A DNA stretch of 59,796 bases from contig CALCGD010000016.1 in NCBI GenBank assembly GCA_937900875.1, forward strand, positions 1 through 59,796. Reading direction: 5' to 3'. The DNA is from an uncultured Flavobacteriales bacterium (GTDB taxonomy: Bacteria; Bacteroidota; Bacteroidia; UBA10329). The position numbers and the translations under genes were made by a program. Every line of letters starts with the position of its first letter. Positions within the stretch are counted from its first letter, which is position 1. Under the pieces are notes generated by a model that saw only the letters and a list, made by a program, of their open reading frames with translations, had not been told where the DNA came from and made no database searches. Positions 36,399-40,403 of the stretch are shown here, piece by piece.

Positions 36399-37301
36399 AT
36401 GACAAATAATCAACTGAAAGCATTAAGGCGGCCCATCGACCAAGTTGGTGTGGAAGAACGCGTAGCGCGATTTCAAACACGTAGTATCAAGTCGGAGGCG
36501 AAAATTCAAGGCTTGAAAATGGTTTTGAATATGATTGACCTTACCACTTTGGAAGGGAAAGACACGGAAGGAAAGGTGCGACAAATGTGCTACAAGGCCA
36601 TGCATCCGCATGATGCGTTGCCCGATTTACCAAGTGTTGCTGCAGTTTGTGTTTACCCTACCTACGTTGCAATTGCGAAGGATGCGTTAAAAGGAAGCGA
36701 TGTGAAAGTTGCCTCAGTAGCAACTGCATTTCCTTCTGGAAATTCGTCTCGAAAAATCAAGTTGGCAGACACGAAAATTGCGGTTGATGCGGGTGCAGAT
36801 GAAGTAGATATGGTGATTTCAAGGGGAGAATACCTCTCGGGGAATTACAGTTTTGTGTTTGATGAAATAGCGGCTATCAAAGAAGCTTGCGGCAAAGCAC
36901 GATTGAAAGTAATTTTGGAAACAGGCGAACTTTCCACCTTAGACAATGTGAGACATGCAAGTGACATTGCCATGTTGGCCGGTGCCGATTTCATCAAGAC
37001 TTCTACGGGAAAAATCAGCCCAGCGGCAACAATGCCCGTAACCTTGGTTATGCTGGAAGCCATTCGCGATTTCTATTACGAAACAGGAAAAATGGTGGGC
37101 ATGAAACCCGCTGGCGGTATCAGCAAAAGCAAGTTGGCATTACACAATTTGGTGATGGTAAAAGAGACTTTAGGCGATGCTTGGTTGAGCAATGAATGGT
37201 TCCGATTTGGGGCCAGCAGCTTAGCGAATGACGTGTTGATGCAGTTGGCGAAACAAGCAGAAGGACGATATCAAGGATTAGATTATTTCAGTAAAGACTG
37301 A
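36399..37301 (+). CDS. deoC: Deoxyribose-phosphate aldolase (long type)
   Basis: IDLTTLEG, VASVATAFPSG, GADEVDMVI, LKVILETGEL, FIKTSTGK, KPAGGI, RFGASSL. Confidence 0.93.
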   Translation: MTNNQLKALRRPIDQVGVEERVARFQTRSIKSEAKIQGLKMVLNMIDLTTLEGKDTEGKVRQMCYKAMHPHDALPDLPSVAAVCVYPTYVAIAKDALKGSDVKVASVATAFPSGNSSRKIKLADTKIAVDAGADEVDMVISRGEYLSGNYSFVFDEIAAIKEACGKARLKVILETGELSTLDNVRHASDIAMLAGADFIKTSTGKISPAATMPVTLVMLEAIRDFYYETGKMVGMKPAGGISKSKLALHNLVMVKETLGDAWLSNEWFRFGASSLANDVLMQLAKQAEGRYQGLDYFSKD

Positions 37302-38773
37302 TGGCAAAAAAGACAGAAACTAAGCTCGATTTCGGTTCTAAATGGGACTATTCTTCGGCACCTGAAAGCGCAGGTCATGCCGAGATAAAGAAGGAATACG
37401 GGTTATACATTAATGGCAAATTCGTAAAGGCTGAAGACGGAAAGAAGTTCGCTTCTATCAGCCCAAGCACGGACGAACACATTGCTTATTTCGCGGAAGC
37501 ATCTGACAAGGATGTAGACAAAGCGGTAAAAGCTGCACGAAAAGCCTACAACGAAGTTTGGGGGCCCATGGCTCCAAAAGAACGGGCGAAGTACATTTTC
37601 AGAATTGCACGATTGATACAAGAACGAGCACGCGAATTTGCCGTGCTGGAAAGCATTGATGGCGGCAAACCAATCAGAGAAAGCCGCGATGTGGATGTTC
37701 CGATTGCGGCAAACCACTTCTTCTATTATGCTGGTTGGGCGGATAAATTAGAATATGCTTTTCCTGGAAAAACGGCTAAGCCAGTTGGTGTAGCGGGGCA
37801 GATTATTCCTTGGAATTTCCCATTGCTAATGGCCGCTTGGAAACTTGCACCAGCATTGGCTTGCGGCAATACGGTCGTACTAAAACCAGCCGAGACTACT
37901 CCACTGACGGCTATGAAATTAGCAGAACTCATTCACGATAGCGGATTGCCTGCTGGGGTTGTGAATATCGTGACTGGTGCGGGAGCAACAGGTGCGGCCA
38001 TTGTCAATCACCCGGACGTAGACAAAGTAGCATTCACAGGTTCGACTGGAGTTGGGAAAATCATTCAGAAAGCTATTGCTGGAACGAATAAAACGGCCAC
38101 TCTAGAACTTGGAGGAAAGGCCGCCAACATCATTTTCGATGATGCCCCAATTGATCAGGCGGTCGAAGGAATTATCAACGGTATATTCTTCAATCAAGGG
38201 CATGTTTGCTGTGCGGGCTCTCGGCTTTTTGTTCAGGAAAATGTGAAGGACATCGTCATCAAGAAATTGAAAGACCGATTGAGCACATTGATTGTTGGTG
38301 ACCCGATGGACAAGAACACGGATGTGGGAGCCATCAACTCAAAAGAGCAGCTTGACACCATCAATAAATACCTGAAAATTGGCGTGGAAGAAGGTGCTGA
38401 GATTTATCAGCCGAATTGCACACTTCCAAAAAAAGGAAATTGGTGCAAACCAACTTTGTTTTTAGAAGCTTCGCAAAGCCATCGAATTGTGCAGGAAGAG
38501 ATTTTCGGACCCGTACTTACGGTTCAGACTTTCAGAACTATTGATGAGGTAATAGACAAGGCGAACAACACTCCATTCGGTCTATCGGCAGGTGTTTGGA
38601 CTGATAAAGGATCGAAGATTTTTAACCTGACAACCAAGTTGAGGGCTGGGGTTATTTGGGCAAATACGTTTAACAAGTTTGACCCTACTTCACCATTCGG
38701 AGGATATAAGGAAAGCGGCTACGGTCGTGAAGGTGGATTGCAAGGATTATCACCCTACGTGAAATTGAGCTAA
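37301..38773 (+). CDS. Aldehyde dehydrogenase, catalytic subunit (ALDH16-like N-terminal part)
   Basis: IIPWNFP, LKPAE, FTGSTGVG, LELGGK, FNQGHVCCAGSR (catalytic Cys), EEIFGP, FGGYKESG. Confidence 0.93.
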   Translation: MAKKTETKLDFGSKWDYSSAPESAGHAEIKKEYGLYINGKFVKAEDGKKFASISPSTDEHIAYFAEASDKDVDKAVKAARKAYNEVWGPMAPKERAKYIFRIARLIQERAREFAVLESIDGGKPIRESRDVDVPIAANHFFYYAGWADKLEYAFPGKTAKPVGVAGQIIPWNFPLLMAAWKLAPALACGNTVVLKPAETTPLTAMKLAELIHDSGLPAGVVNIVTGAGATGAAIVNHPDVDKVAFTGSTGVGKIIQKAIAGTNKTATLELGGKAANIIFDDAPIDQAVEGIINGIFFNQGHVCCAGSRLFVQENVKDIVIKKLKDRLSTLIVGDPMDKNTDVGAINSKEQLDTINKYLKIGVEEGAEIYQPNCTLPKKGNWCKPTLFLEASQSHRIVQEEIFGPVLTVQTFRTIDEVIDKANNTPFGLSAGVWTDKGSKIFNLTTKLRAGVIWANTFNKFDPTSPFGGYKESGYGREGGLQGLSPYVKLS

Positions 38774-38805
38774 CCGCAAAGACGCAGAGATTTCGCAAAG
38801 GGCGC
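38771..38805 (+). repeat. Left imperfect inverted repeat of the GxxExxY cassette
   Basis: TAACCGCAAAGACGCAGAGATTTCGCAAAGGGCGC matches the reverse complement of 39217-39251 at 26/35 positions without gaps. Confidence 0.8.
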
Positions 38806-38813
38806 AAGAAATA

Positions 38814-39212
38814 ATGATTGAGAATCCGGCAATATTGACAGAAAATGAACTCTCAAAGGAGGTTATAGGCTGTGCTATAACGGTACATCGATCTTTAGGA
38901 CCCGGTCTTTTGGAAAATGCATATCAGCAATGTTTGGCATACGAACTGAGAAATCTGGGTTTAAAGGTTGAAGTGGAAAAATCGATGCCCTTGATTTATG
39001 ATGACGTAGAAATGGATTGCGGATATCGGATAGATATTTTGGTTGAAAACAAGCTGATTATAGAGTTAAAGGCGGTTGAAGAAATAAATGATGTTCATCT
39101 GGCGCAAACACTTACTTATTTGAAATTGAGTGGTTGTAAACTCGGCCTATTGATGAATTTCAATGTTGCTATTCTTAAGAATGGCATCAAACGAGTAGTA
39201 AATGGATTATAA
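38814..39212 (+). CDS. GxxExxY protein (PD-(D/E)XK nuclease superfamily)
   Basis: VHRSLGPGLLENAY (GxxExxY), RIDILVENKLIIELK (D...ExK), QTLTYLK, GLLMNF. Confidence 0.92.
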   Translation: MIENPAILTENELSKEVIGCAITVHRSLGPGLLENAYQQCLAYELRNLGLKVEVEKSMPLIYDDVEMDCGYRIDILVENKLIIELKAVEEINDVHLAQTLTYLKLSGCKLGLLMNFNVAILKNGIKRVVNGL

Positions 39213-39216
39213 CTCC

Positions 39217-39251
39217 GCGTTCTTTGTGCAAACTTTGCGACTCCGCGGTTA
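39217..39251 (-). repeat. Right imperfect inverted repeat of the GxxExxY cassette
   Basis: Reverse complement reads TAACCGCGGAGTCGCAAAGTTTGCACAAAGAACGC. Confidence 0.8.
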
Positions 39252-39261
39252 AACGATTAAG

Positions 39262-40134
39262 ATGAGCAGATTGGAAGTTCAAAAAACATACAAAATCTAC
39301 ATTGGAGGAGCATTTCCCCGAACAGAAAGTGGTAGATTTTATCCTGTAACGCTGAAAGACGGAACGGTAACTAACATCTGTTTAAGCAGCAGAAAAGATG
39401 CAAGAAATGCTGTGGTTGCAGCTCGAAATGCTTTTGAAGGTTGGAGCAGTCGGGCAGCGTTTAATCGTAGCCAAATTCTCTACCGAATTGCCGAAATGTT
39501 GGAAGGCAGAAAGGCACAATTCGTTGAGGAATTAATGGCGGTTGGCGCTTCAAAACCAAACGCGATTAAAGAAGTAGAAGCATCCATTGACCGTTGCGTT
39601 TATTTCGCTGGTTGGTGCGATAAGTACACGCAACTTTTCGGTTCGATAAACCCGGTTGCATCTTCACACTTCAATTTTAGTGTTCAAGAACCAACTGGTG
39701 TTGTTACGATAGTTGCTCCAGAAAGCCCATCACTTTTGGGCCTTGTAAGCGCCATCATGCCAGTAATTGCTGGAGGTAACACATGTGTTGTGTTGGCTTC
39801 TGAAAACTCTCCGCACGTAGCTGTAACGTTTGCAGAAGTGTTGAATTCGTCAGATGTTCCAGGAGGGGTTATCAATATCCTCACAGGAAAAGAAGATGAA
39901 TTGGTAGAGCATTTCAGCAGCCACATGGATGTAAACGCCACCATTTACTGCCGAGAAAAGCACCTCACAAAAATCAAAGAGAACGCATCTTTGAACGTGA
40001 AACGTGTTTCTGATTGGAGTAATAAAGACTGGTATACGGAAGGTGACGATCCGTATTTACTACTCGAAACCCAAGAGGTAAAAACCACTTGGCACCCTAT
40101 TGAAAATATTGCTGGAGCCAAATCTGGCTACTGA
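39262..40134 (+). CDS. Truncated aldehyde-dehydrogenase-family protein (NAD-binding-like domain only; ALDH16 C-terminal-like)
   Basis: KTYKIYIGGAFPRTESGR start, EPTGVV, GNTCVV, PGGVINILTG, KTTWHP. Lacks ELGGK and the catalytic Cys domain. Confidence 0.85.
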   Translation: MSRLEVQKTYKIYIGGAFPRTESGRFYPVTLKDGTVTNICLSSRKDARNAVVAARNAFEGWSSRAAFNRSQILYRIAEMLEGRKAQFVEELMAVGASKPNAIKEVEASIDRCVYFAGWCDKYTQLFGSINPVASSHFNFSVQEPTGVVTIVAPESPSLLGLVSAIMPVIAGGNTCVVLASENSPHVAVTFAEVLNSSDVPGGVINILTGKEDELVEHFSSHMDVNATIYCREKHLTKIKENASLNVKRVSDWSNKDWYTEGDDPYLLLETQEVKTTWHPIENIAGAKSGY

Positions 40135-40160: not shown

Positions 40161-40403
40161 ATGAGCGCTGTAAGTCACAAAAGGCACGTAGCAAAAACGA
40201 TAACCTGGCGAATAATTGCCTCCATCACTACGTTCATTTTAGCTTGGTTCTTCTTTCGAGACGACCCATTGGTGGCAGAAAAAGCCACGGGCGTAGCCAT
40301 CGCAGAAACCTTCATAAAAATGGCTCTATATTACTTCCATGAACGGGCTTGGTATAGCTTTGATTTTGGCGTAACCCGAGATGATGATGACGATAAGAAA
40401 TAA
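40161..40403 (+). CDS. DUF2061 small membrane protein
   Basis: RHVAKTITWRI...KMALYYFHERAW signature and two TM helices. Confidence 0.85.
   Translation: MSAVSHKRHVAKTITWRIIASITTFILAWFFFRDDPLVAEKATGVAIAETFIKMALYYFHERAWYSFDFGVTRDDDDDKK

What the first reader, a model, noticed from the sequence alone, without database searches (positions are those of the whole stretch)
38771..39252. GxxExxY nuclease gene in an inverted-repeat cassette inserted at a stop codon: candidate transposase-less mobile or intervening element
Seen in sequence: the left flank TAACCGCAAAGACGCAGAGATTTCGCAAAGGGCGC (38771-38805) and the reverse complement of the right flank TAACCGCGGAGTCGCAAAGTTTGCACAAAGAACGC (39217-39251) match at 26/35 positions without gaps. 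Four of the nine mismatches would be G-U pairs in the + strand RNA, giving 30/35 paired. The repeats fill almost all the non-coding space on both sides of the ORF. The left end starts at the TAA stop of the ALDH gene and a second TAA lies at 39250-39252. Deleting 38774-39252 leaves TAA-ACGATTAAG-ATG, a normal 9-nt operon spacer. Established: GxxExxY proteins belong to the PD-(D/E)XK nuclease superfamily and lack a defined role. Inference: this is a minimal selfish element whose nuclease recognises its own ends or which homes to stop codons. The IR stem may loop the ORF out of the mRNA so the host operon is not disrupted.
Basis: partly seen in the sequence, partly recalled or inferred. Interest (0 to 1): 0.85.

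Follow-up and report, generated by a model that had tools for sequence, protein, structure and literature searches.

The report
Mobile hairpin cassette carrying small nuclease
A small nuclease gene wrapped in inverted repeats sits exactly between two genes of an operon, is present in some sister species and cleanly absent in others, and belongs to a widespread, apparently undescribed class of selfish hairpin cassettes that resembles the mysterious intervening sequences of ribosomal RNA genes.

Summary
The 35-nt arms (38771-38805 and 39217-39251) pair at 26/35 positions; 0 of 5000 shuffles reach this.

The ORF is a GxxExxY / PF13366 PD-(D/E)XK nuclease with an intact catalytic core.

- Congeners have clean empty sites, with stop and start 1-2 nt apart. 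Other congeners carry an unrelated GxxExxY cassette with different arms at the same junction.
- 78 of 110 GxxExxY genes from several phyla have significant flanking inverted repeats built from CRCRRAG-type heptamers, mostly reaching from the upstream stop codon to the downstream start.
- ORF-less hairpins with the same arms exist and are themselves present or absent between species.

Paralogous cassettes about 90% identical lie at unrelated loci in one genome.

Unrelated four-helix-bundle ("23S rRNA IVS protein") genes use the same architecture (27/30).

How it moves is unknown. There is no sense-strand G:U excess, so RNA-level looping is unsupported. The true empty site shows the A-rich tail belongs to the element.

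Best reading: a REP/RAYT-like or IVS-like mobile palindromic cassette, not found in the paper library searched.

The parts
37301..38773 (+). Upstream host gene: full-length aldehyde dehydrogenase (490 aa). Its TAA stop (38771-38773) forms the first three bases of the left arm.
   Evidence: PF00171, profile positions 1-457 of 461, E 3.5e-159; ORF list.
38771..38805 (+). Left arm of the inverted repeat. It holds three heptamer sub-repeats (CGCAAAG, CGCAGAG, CGCAAAG) within 38775-38800.
   Evidence: The same arm family occurs elsewhere in the own genome and in relatives.
38806..38813 (+). Short A-rich leader between the left arm and the cassette ORF start.
   Evidence: Sequence; aligned across 9 orthologous cassettes.
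38814..39212 (+). Cassette ORF: 132-aa GxxExxY protein, a PD-(D/E)XK nuclease. Invariant residues are E34, D74, E84, K86, Q98 and Y102. GC is 36.6%, against 43-46% in the neighbouring genes.
   Evidence: pLDDT 94; Cas4 / lambda-exonuclease / Hjc-like fold.
39217..39251 (+). Right arm of the inverted repeat. The heptamer complements form a cluster at 39213-39247.
   Evidence: 82.9% of cells paired across 9 orthologous cassettes, against 36-50% when the partner is slid.
39252..39261 (+). A-rich tail that ends at the ATG of the next gene. It is part of the insert and is absent from empty sites.
   Evidence: Empty sites read TAAGATG. Similar tails follow ORF-less hairpins at other loci. Similarity between paralogous cassettes runs up to the downstream ATG.
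39262..40134 (+). Downstream host gene: a conserved 290-aa ALDH-like protein covering only the N-terminal half of the family.
   Evidence: PF00171, profile positions 18-232 of 461. Relatives have the same 291-codon frame.

Best explanation
Bases 38771-39261 are one copy of a mobile, or at least repeatedly gained, lost and replaced, palindromic intergenic cassette. Its layout is: the stop codon of the upstream gene, a left arm of 3-4 heptamer sub-repeats (CRCRRAG, about 9 nt apart), a short leader, an optional roughly 125-aa GxxExxY PD-(D/E)XK nuclease gene, the complementary right arm, and an A-rich tail ending at the ATG of the downstream gene. It sits in the same orientation as its neighbours. 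No promoter signal above chance and no terminator was found by a sigma-70-type scan, which does not cover other promoter types, so it is presumably read as part of the host operon (inferred). By supplying a stop codon and an A-rich leader, it leaves both neighbours intact. ORF-less hairpins with the same arms are its non-autonomous relatives. The most likely mechanism, which is inferred and not shown, is that the nuclease binds the iterated heptamers of the arms (as duplex or as extruded hairpin DNA) and makes the breaks that let the cassette and the ORF-less hairpins be copied into new stop/start junctions. This would parallel the way RAYT enzymes serve REP/REPIN hairpins.
For: Shown:
- The inverted repeat is real and is kept across 9 orthologous cassettes: 82.9% of cells paired against 36-50% when slid, 7 pairs with changes on both sides, covariation score reached by 3 of 500 shuffles.
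- At the ALDH junction, 17 loci examined gave 6 empty, 8 with this cassette type and 3 with an unrelated GxxExxY cassette with perfect 29-nt arms of another sequence. These states are interspersed on the flanking-gene trees.
- At a second junction (acs/polA), 3 loci are empty and 6 filled, and the stop codon is part of the repeat.
- At a third junction holding an ORF-less hairpin, 5 genomes are empty (stop and start overlap as ATGA) and 9 are filled, with two hairpin types and up to three tandem copies.
- In one genome, cassette pairs 89.6% identical over 483 nt and 84.8% over 513 nt lie between unrelated flanks.
- 78 of 110 GxxExxY genes have significant flanking repeats. They come mostly from Bacteroidota, with some from Chloroflexota, Cyanobacteria, Acidobacteriota and Desulfobacterota. 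A control shifted 800 nt gave 0 of 102 with score >= 30, against 66 of 109 for the real flanks.
- 62 of 78 have co-directional neighbours on both sides. The left repeat end lies within +/-10 nt of the upstream stop in 39 of 70.
- The catalytic residues E, D, E-x-K are invariant in 19 diverse members. The fold is like Cas4, lambda exonuclease and Hjc.
- Cassette ORFs have lower GC than their flanks in 105 of 107 cases.
- Arm-motif counts per genome (0-77) track GxxExxY gene counts in 22 congeners (rho 0.67) but not four-helix-bundle gene counts (rho 0.21).
Against: - No biochemical or sequence evidence links the nuclease to the arms.
- Four-helix-bundle genes, which are not nucleases, sit in the same architecture (27 of 30), so the vehicle does not need a nuclease in cis. 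G001, G006, G018 and G020, with no GxxExxY gene detected (70-84% complete), all carry four-helix-bundle genes. All but G001 have arm-motif hits, though in G006 and G018 these barely exceed the reversed-pattern control, and G001 carries an ORF-less hairpin at a fourth junction.
- The rho of 0.67 is partly circular, because each cassette contributes its own arms, and it is not corrected for phylogeny.
- No consistent target-site duplication could be defined.
- Arms of ORF-less copies in the own genome differ from the cassette arms at 4-9 of 35 positions, so there is no sign of a recent burst.
- The closest relatives of this ORF all sit at the same ALDH junction. That also fits vertical descent plus allelic exchange.
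- 32 of 110 GxxExxY genes showed no significant repeat.
- No excision junction was seen in the contigs of four metagenome runs.
Confidence: 0.55

Rival explanations
1. IVS-like element that acts at the RNA level. The arms form a long double-stranded RNA stem in the operon transcript, which RNase III cuts or which sequesters the insert, as in ORF-bearing 23S rRNA intervening sequences. The nuclease or four-helix-bundle ORF is a passenger, and spread depends on host processes. This is not exclusive of the best explanation.
For: Size and layout match the ORF-bearing 23S IVS: 428-444 nt, a 28-bp terminal stem and an S23p ORF, cut by RNase III in vitro (passages of PMC4990558). Genes of that same four-helix-bundle family in relatives lie in the same cassette architecture between protein-coding genes (27 of 30 with repeats, 27 of 30 with co-directional neighbours). 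The minimum-free-energy RNA fold of 38765-39265 pairs the two arms (z = -4.0). No terminator was found inside the cassette.
Against: There is no excess of G:U over A:C in the sense strand (72 against 91), and recurrent A:C mismatches occur at fixed positions of the stem. The heptamer sequence is conserved across phyla, which a mere stem would not need. No RNA data exist for this organism. No Rfam family matches.
Confidence: 0.2
2. Free-standing homing endonuclease gene. The nuclease cuts the empty stop/start junction of the same operon in cassette-less cells, and the cassette is copied in by repair from a filled allele. The repeats would be incidental.
For: A nuclease ORF lies between conserved genes with clean empty alleles. 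The closest relatives of this ORF all occupy the same ALDH junction in eight genomes. The unrelated type-B cassette occupies the same junction in two separate host clades. The last ALDH codon differs systematically between empty and filled alleles.
Against: It does not explain the conserved heptamer arms, the ORF-less hairpins at other junctions, the four-helix-bundle cassettes, or the near-identical cassettes at unrelated loci. A tree of the 240 nt on each side of the junction does not group alleles by state with good support.
Confidence: 0.12
3. A host regulatory hairpin with a resident gene. It would be ancient, vertically inherited and simply lost in some lineages, not a mobile element.
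For: Copies within one genome are diverged. The cassette is syntenic in eight genomes. REP-like hairpins can serve host functions (recalled).
Against: It would require several exact losses that restore an identical TAAGATG junction, replacement by an unrelated cassette in two clades, tandem multiplication, paralogues at unrelated loci and systematically low GC.
Confidence: 0.06

Closest known systems
REP / REPIN hairpins and their RAYT genes (REP-associated tyrosine transposases)
   Same: Short palindromic repeats are dispersed between genes. A small enzyme gene is itself flanked by inverted copies of the same repeat. ORF-less hairpins outnumber the gene, with up to 77 arm-motif hits against 3-5 genes per genome.
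   Different: The enzyme is a roughly 125-aa PD-(D/E)XK nuclease, not a Y1 HUH transposase. The arms are 35-45 nt and built of iterated heptamers. There are several cassette lineages per genome, whereas RAYTs are typically single-copy (abstract of PMC5581495, listing). The element spans exactly from stop codon to start codon.
ORF-bearing 23S rRNA intervening sequences (IVS with an S23p / four-helix-bundle ORF)
   Same: A 430-550-nt unit in which a roughly 120-aa ORF lies in the loop of a long terminal inverted repeat. It has low GC, is scattered in occurrence, and was long suspected to be a mobile element of unknown origin (passages of PMC4990558). The IVS protein family occurs in the same cassette layout in this genus.
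   Different: This copy lies between protein-coding genes, not in helix 25 or 45 of 23S rRNA. Its ORF is a nuclease. RNase III processing was not tested.
MITEs and their parent insertion sequences
   Same: Terminal inverted repeats, presence/absence between relatives, ORF-less derivatives and tandem arrays.
   Different: No DDE, HUH, serine or tyrosine transposase is present. No clear target-site duplication was found. The loop of an ORF-less copy shows no remnant of the ORF.
Free-standing homing endonuclease genes of phages (recalled: Seg and Mob genes of T4; the PD-(D/E)XK enzyme I-Ssp6803I)
   Same: A small nuclease gene is wedged between conserved genes, with clean empty alleles.
   Different: Those genes have no inverted-repeat arms and no ORF-less copies. 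GxxExxY was not found in 50,697 phage records.

Membership tests
GxxExxY protein (TIGR04256) / PDDEXK_3 (PF13366) | Profile score above the curated cut-off over the full length | tested here: met
   TIGR04256: 153.1 bits (cut-off 35), profile positions 1-116 of 116. PF13366: E 5.1e-43, positions 2-117 of 117.
GxxExxY protein (TIGR04256) / PDDEXK_3 (PF13366) | G-x-x-E-x-x-Y motif and the PD-(D/E)XK core (D ... E-x-K) | tested here: met
   G31, E34, Y37, D74, E84 and K86 are invariant in 19 diverse members.
PD-(D/E)XK nuclease fold | Restriction-endonuclease-like alpha/beta core | tested here: met
   AlphaFold2 model with pLDDT 94.2. Best Foldseek matches are Cas4 SSO0001 (E 1.9e-4, TM 0.53), lambda exonuclease, RecE and Hjc. 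No solved relative was found by sequence.
REP/RAYT (REPIN) system | Enzyme gene flanked by inverted copies of a repeat that is also dispersed as ORF-less hairpins | tested here: met
REP/RAYT (REPIN) system | The enzyme is a Y1 HUH (IS200/IS605-like) transposase | tested here: not met
   The only Pfam and NCBIfam hits are PF13366 and TIGR04256.
REP/RAYT (REPIN) system | GTAG or CGTC tag at one end of the palindrome (from the title of PMC3733652, listings) | tested here: not met
   The arms start TAACC and contain neither tetranucleotide at their ends.
23S rRNA intervening sequence | ORF in the loop of a long terminal inverted repeat, unit of about 0.4-0.8 kb | tested here: met
   The span from repeat to repeat is 481 nt, with 35-nt arms.
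23S rRNA intervening sequence | Inserted in a 23S rRNA helix | tested here: not met
   It lies between two ALDH genes. There are no Rfam hits in 38500-39500.
23S rRNA intervening sequence | Excised from the transcript by RNase III | not testable with these tools
   No RNA run holds this stretch.
Insertion sequence / MITE | Terminal inverted repeats, plus presence/absence at orthologous sites | tested here: met
Insertion sequence / MITE | Target-site duplication of fixed length | tested here: inconclusive
   TAA or TTAA at both ends may be part of the repeat. One site-3 copy has ATGA on both sides. No rule holds across sites.
Insertion sequence / MITE | A recognised transposase family | tested here: not met
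Homing endonuclease gene | Cleaves the cassette-free allele of its own site | not testable with these tools
   This needs an enzyme assay.
Anti-phage defence or phage gene | Match to a PADLOC or PHROGs family | tested here: not met
   PADLOC gave only E 0.005 over 40 residues; PHROGs gave none.

The most novel reading that the evidence does not exclude
GxxExxY proteins are a new, minimal (about 125 aa) class of mobility nuclease. They recognise iterated heptamers in hairpin arms and spread both their own cassettes and ORF-less hairpins into stop/start junctions of operons. Together with the four-helix-bundle cassettes, they form the free-living population from which the ORF-bearing intervening sequences of 23S rRNA genes are derived.
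Probability: 0.3. Interest if true: 0.9.

Novelty: new variant of a known kind. Interest (0 to 1): 0.8.

Why it matters
PF13366 / TIGR04256 is a large family listed as function 'Unknown' (PMC3424549, passage seen). Only 5 papers in the searched library mention it at all. Placing its genes, and those of the equally obscure four-helix-bundle '23S rRNA IVS protein' family, inside one recognisable kind of gain-and-loss cassette gives both families a testable role. It also offers a source population for rRNA intervening sequences, whose origin and function were still called unclear in 2016 (PMC4990558). In addition, it describes a selfish element that lands between the stop and start codons of an operon and brings its own stop codon and leader, so that neither neighbour is damaged. 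If the nuclease proves to be the mobilising enzyme, it would be a transposition or homing chemistry carried by a far smaller protein than known ones.

Tried and rejected
- Chance repeat: rejected.
- Known RNA family or ribozyme: 0 Rfam matches at E <= 10 in 38500-39500.
- Own promoter or terminator: sigma-70-like sites are at the chance level and there are 0 terminators. This scan does not cover other promoter types.
- Sense-strand RNA stem inferred from wobble pairs: no G:U excess.
- ORF-less hairpin as an internal-deletion derivative: the loop of the own-genome copy on contig C245 shows no likeness to the ORF ends (p = 0.89).
- Co-conversion of flanks with the cassette state: the tree of the 240-nt flanks is largely unresolved.
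- Defence or phage origin: no convincing PADLOC or PHROGs match. There were 0 of 50,697 phage records and 8 of 72,556 plasmid records with a relative.
- Four-helix-bundle genes in the own genome: none.
- Solved structure by sequence: none at E <= 1.
- Expression and excision: no RNA holder is listed. Contigs of four DNA runs show the filled form and one diverged relative with other letters in its place, but no excision joint. Contigs cannot show rare forms.
- Site 4 was read from the table only; its junctions were not extracted.
- At site 2, 11 of 20 loci held only one anchor and were not analysed. Several genomes have 1.6-2 kb of extra DNA there that I did not examine.
- One of the 80 named loci (L088) was dropped for a short flank.
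- Literature: searches found no description of these cassettes. The library lacks most subscription journals, and supplements were not consulted.
Full report
**1. The observation**

The window carries, all on the + strand:
- deoC at 36399-37301;
- a full-length aldehyde dehydrogenase at 37301-38773;
- a 132-aa ORF at 38814-39212;
- a 290-aa ALDH-like gene at 39262-40134.

My own count is 26 Watson-Crick, 4 G:U, 2 A:C and 3 other pairs. None of 5000 shuffles of the two short spacers reaches the observed score.

The ORF is a GxxExxY / PF13366 protein. Glutamate 34, aspartate 74, glutamate 84 and lysine 86 are invariant in 19 diverse relatives. A confident model (pLDDT 94) matches Cas4, lambda exonuclease, RecE and Hjc, all PD-(D/E)XK nucleases.

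**2. Empty, filled and differently filled sites**

I searched 40 relatives with the ALDH locus and cut out the junction wherever both anchors were found, which gave 17 loci including the window's own.
- Six are empty. Four read TAAGATG (stop, one base, start). The two more distant ones have two bases between a TGA stop and the ATG.
- Eight carry this cassette type. One of them has CAC in place of CGC in the sub-repeats of both arms. Another has a left arm of one kind and a right arm of the other.
- Three carry a different GxxExxY protein between perfect 29-nt arms made of TACGAAT-like units.

On trees of the flanking genes the three states are interspersed. The window's genome, which is filled, groups with three empty genomes, and both cassette types occur in each of two well-supported clades. 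At least four or five changes of state are needed at this single junction.

The true empty site shows that the A-rich 10 nt after the right arm belong to the insert.

**3. Other sites**

The own genome has one more GxxExxY gene, between acs and polA. Its arms have a different sequence but again begin with the stop codon of the upstream gene. Among the congeners where both anchors were found, three are empty and six are filled, including the window's own genome. The arms in the other genomes use CGCGGAT units where the own genome has CACAGAT, changed in both arms alike.

ORF-less hairpins with the window's arm family lie at five more places in the own genome, plus two solitary arms. That makes 13 motif clusters in total, counting the window cassette's two arms, against 0 in a shuffled genome.

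One of these hairpins lies on contig C208. Five congeners are empty at that junction, and there the stop and start overlap as ATGA. Nine genomes, including the window's own, are filled, with two hairpin types, one 262-nt compound form and one array of three tandem hairpins.

In a relative with 20 GxxExxY matches, three cassette pairs are 83-90% identical over 447-513 nt while their flanks are unrelated. In the pair whose alignment runs that far, the likeness ends at the downstream ATG. The unit therefore multiplies as a whole.

**4. Generality**

I tested 110 GxxExxY genes for a local inverted repeat between 200 nt upstream and 250 nt downstream. Thirty-one came from relatives and 79 from named public genomes; an 80th was dropped for a short flank. 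Of the 110, 78 are significant at p <= 0.01. Seven of the 31 are the same ALDH-site cassette and are not independent. A control shifted into the neighbouring gene gave 0 of 102 with score >= 30, against 66 of 109 for the real flanks.

The arms are built of heptamers, with a modal 3 per arm and a modal spacing of 9 nt:

| Heptamer | Count |
|---|---|
| CGCAAAG | 114 |
| CACAGAG | 55 |
| CACAAAG | 50 |
| CGCAGAG | 46 |

This holds in Bacteroidota, Chloroflexota, Cyanobacteria, Acidobacteriota and Desulfobacterota.

Context of the 78 significant cases:
- 62 have co-directional ORFs on both sides.
- The left repeat end lies within +/-10 nt of the upstream stop in 39 of 70.
- The next start lies from 20 nt before to 35 nt after the right repeat end in 50 of 68.

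In four cases the arms are in the reverse order, with the pyrimidine-rich arm first. Cassette ORFs have lower GC than their flanks in 105 of 107 cases. The family is rare on plasmids (8 of 72,556 records) and was not found in phages.

**5. A second protein family in the same vehicle**

Genes of the four-helix-bundle family TIGR02436 are absent from the own genome but number 0-12 per relative. This family is known from the ORFs of 23S rRNA intervening sequences.

Of 30 such genes examined, 27 have significant flanking repeats. These repeats are again made of 3-4 sub-repeats of 7-8 nt, but with other sequences. Also 27 of the 30 lie between co-directional genes, and all 29 testable ones have lower GC than their flanks.

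The described ORF-bearing IVS is a 428-444-nt unit with a 28-bp terminal stem around an S23p ORF. It is cut out by RNase III, and its origin is unclear (passages of PMC4990558). The layout is the same. The difference is that the cassettes here lie in operons, not in rRNA.

**6. DNA or RNA?**

The minimum-free-energy RNA fold pairs the arms, and pairing is conserved across nine orthologous cassettes, with modest covariation. However, over 74 independent repeat pairs, sense-strand G:U (72) does not exceed A:C (91), and fixed A:C mismatches recur. The heptamer sequence is conserved far beyond what a stem alone would need.

In one paralogous pair the ORFs are about 93% identical by my reading of the alignment, yet nearly every sub-repeat of both arms differs by CAC against CGC. 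The arms therefore change in concert or are exchanged as modules.

These facts favour recognition of the arms as sequence (DNA or RNA, by a protein) over a simple sense-RNA stem. They do not decide the matter. No RNA data exist for this organism.

**7. Mechanism**

Shown: this is a discrete unit that is gained, lost, replaced, multiplied in tandem and copied to unrelated loci. It fills stop-to-start spacers in the orientation of the operon, and it has ORF-less relatives.

Inferred: the nuclease serves the arms. Support for this inference is indirect:
- the catalytic site is intact;
- the association with the heptamer arms is kept across phyla;
- arm-motif counts correlate with gene counts in 22 congeners (rho 0.67), while four-helix-bundle gene counts do not (rho 0.21). 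This correlation is partly circular and not corrected for phylogeny.

Against it, non-nuclease cassettes share the architecture, and genomes without a detected GxxExxY gene still hold hairpins.

I give about 0.55 to the REP/RAYT-like reading, 0.2 to a mainly RNA-level IVS-like reading (the two can coexist), 0.12 to site-specific homing and 0.06 to a non-mobile host feature.

**8. Comparison and novelty**

By profile, motif and fold, the ORF is a member of PF13366 / TIGR04256. The element works like a REP/RAYT pair and looks like an IVS. It fails defining features of each:
- it has no HUH enzyme and no GTAG or CGTC tag;
- it is not in rRNA;
- it has no recognised transposase and no fixed target duplication.

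Six searches of the paper library found no description of these cassettes. The only functional statement found for the family is 'Unknown' (PMC3424549). The library is incomplete and supplements were not read.

I rate the finding as a new variant of a known kind, namely palindromic intergenic mobile elements with an associated nuclease. There is a real chance that it is more than that.

Noticed in passing
window 39262-40134: The second 'ALDH' is only 290 aa and matches just the N-terminal half of the family (profile positions 18-232 of 461). The same 291-codon frame is kept in relatives, so it looks like a conserved half-ALDH protein rather than a broken gene. A DUF2061 membrane protein follows at 40161-40403.
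   Followed up: partly
L231 and L233 (two loci of relative G029): Two paralogous cassettes have ORFs about 93% identical, yet nearly every heptamer in both arms differs by CAC against CGC. The arms therefore change in concert or are swapped as modules. The same CGC/CAC contrast separates cassettes at the ALDH and acs/polA junctions.
   Followed up: partly
L192 (relative G009, junction orthologous to own contig C208:8629-8712): Three nearly identical hairpins of about 100 nt lie in tandem (312 nt) in a junction where other species have an overlapping ATGA stop/start.
   Followed up: partly
L152-L181 (relatives): Four-helix-bundle ('23S rRNA IVS protein') genes lie in inverted-repeat cassettes between co-directional genes (27 of 30). 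Their arms are made of 7-8-nt sub-repeats that differ from locus to locus.
   Followed up: partly
L090, L098, L120, L127: These are 'inside-out' cassettes. The pyrimidine-rich arm plus the A-rich tail precedes the GxxExxY start, and the purine-rich arm begins at its stop, as if the nuclease gene took the place of a host gene between two half-elements.
   Followed up: no
all cassettes examined: The purine-rich arm, with units ending in AG, is almost always the 5' arm. The pyrimidine-rich arm lies just before the A-rich leader of the next gene. No explanation was found.
   Followed up: no
acs/polA junction in G003, G008, G012, G013, G015: These genomes have 1.6-2 kb of extra DNA between acs and polA, or between acs and the GxxExxY gene. 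I did not examine it.
   Followed up: no
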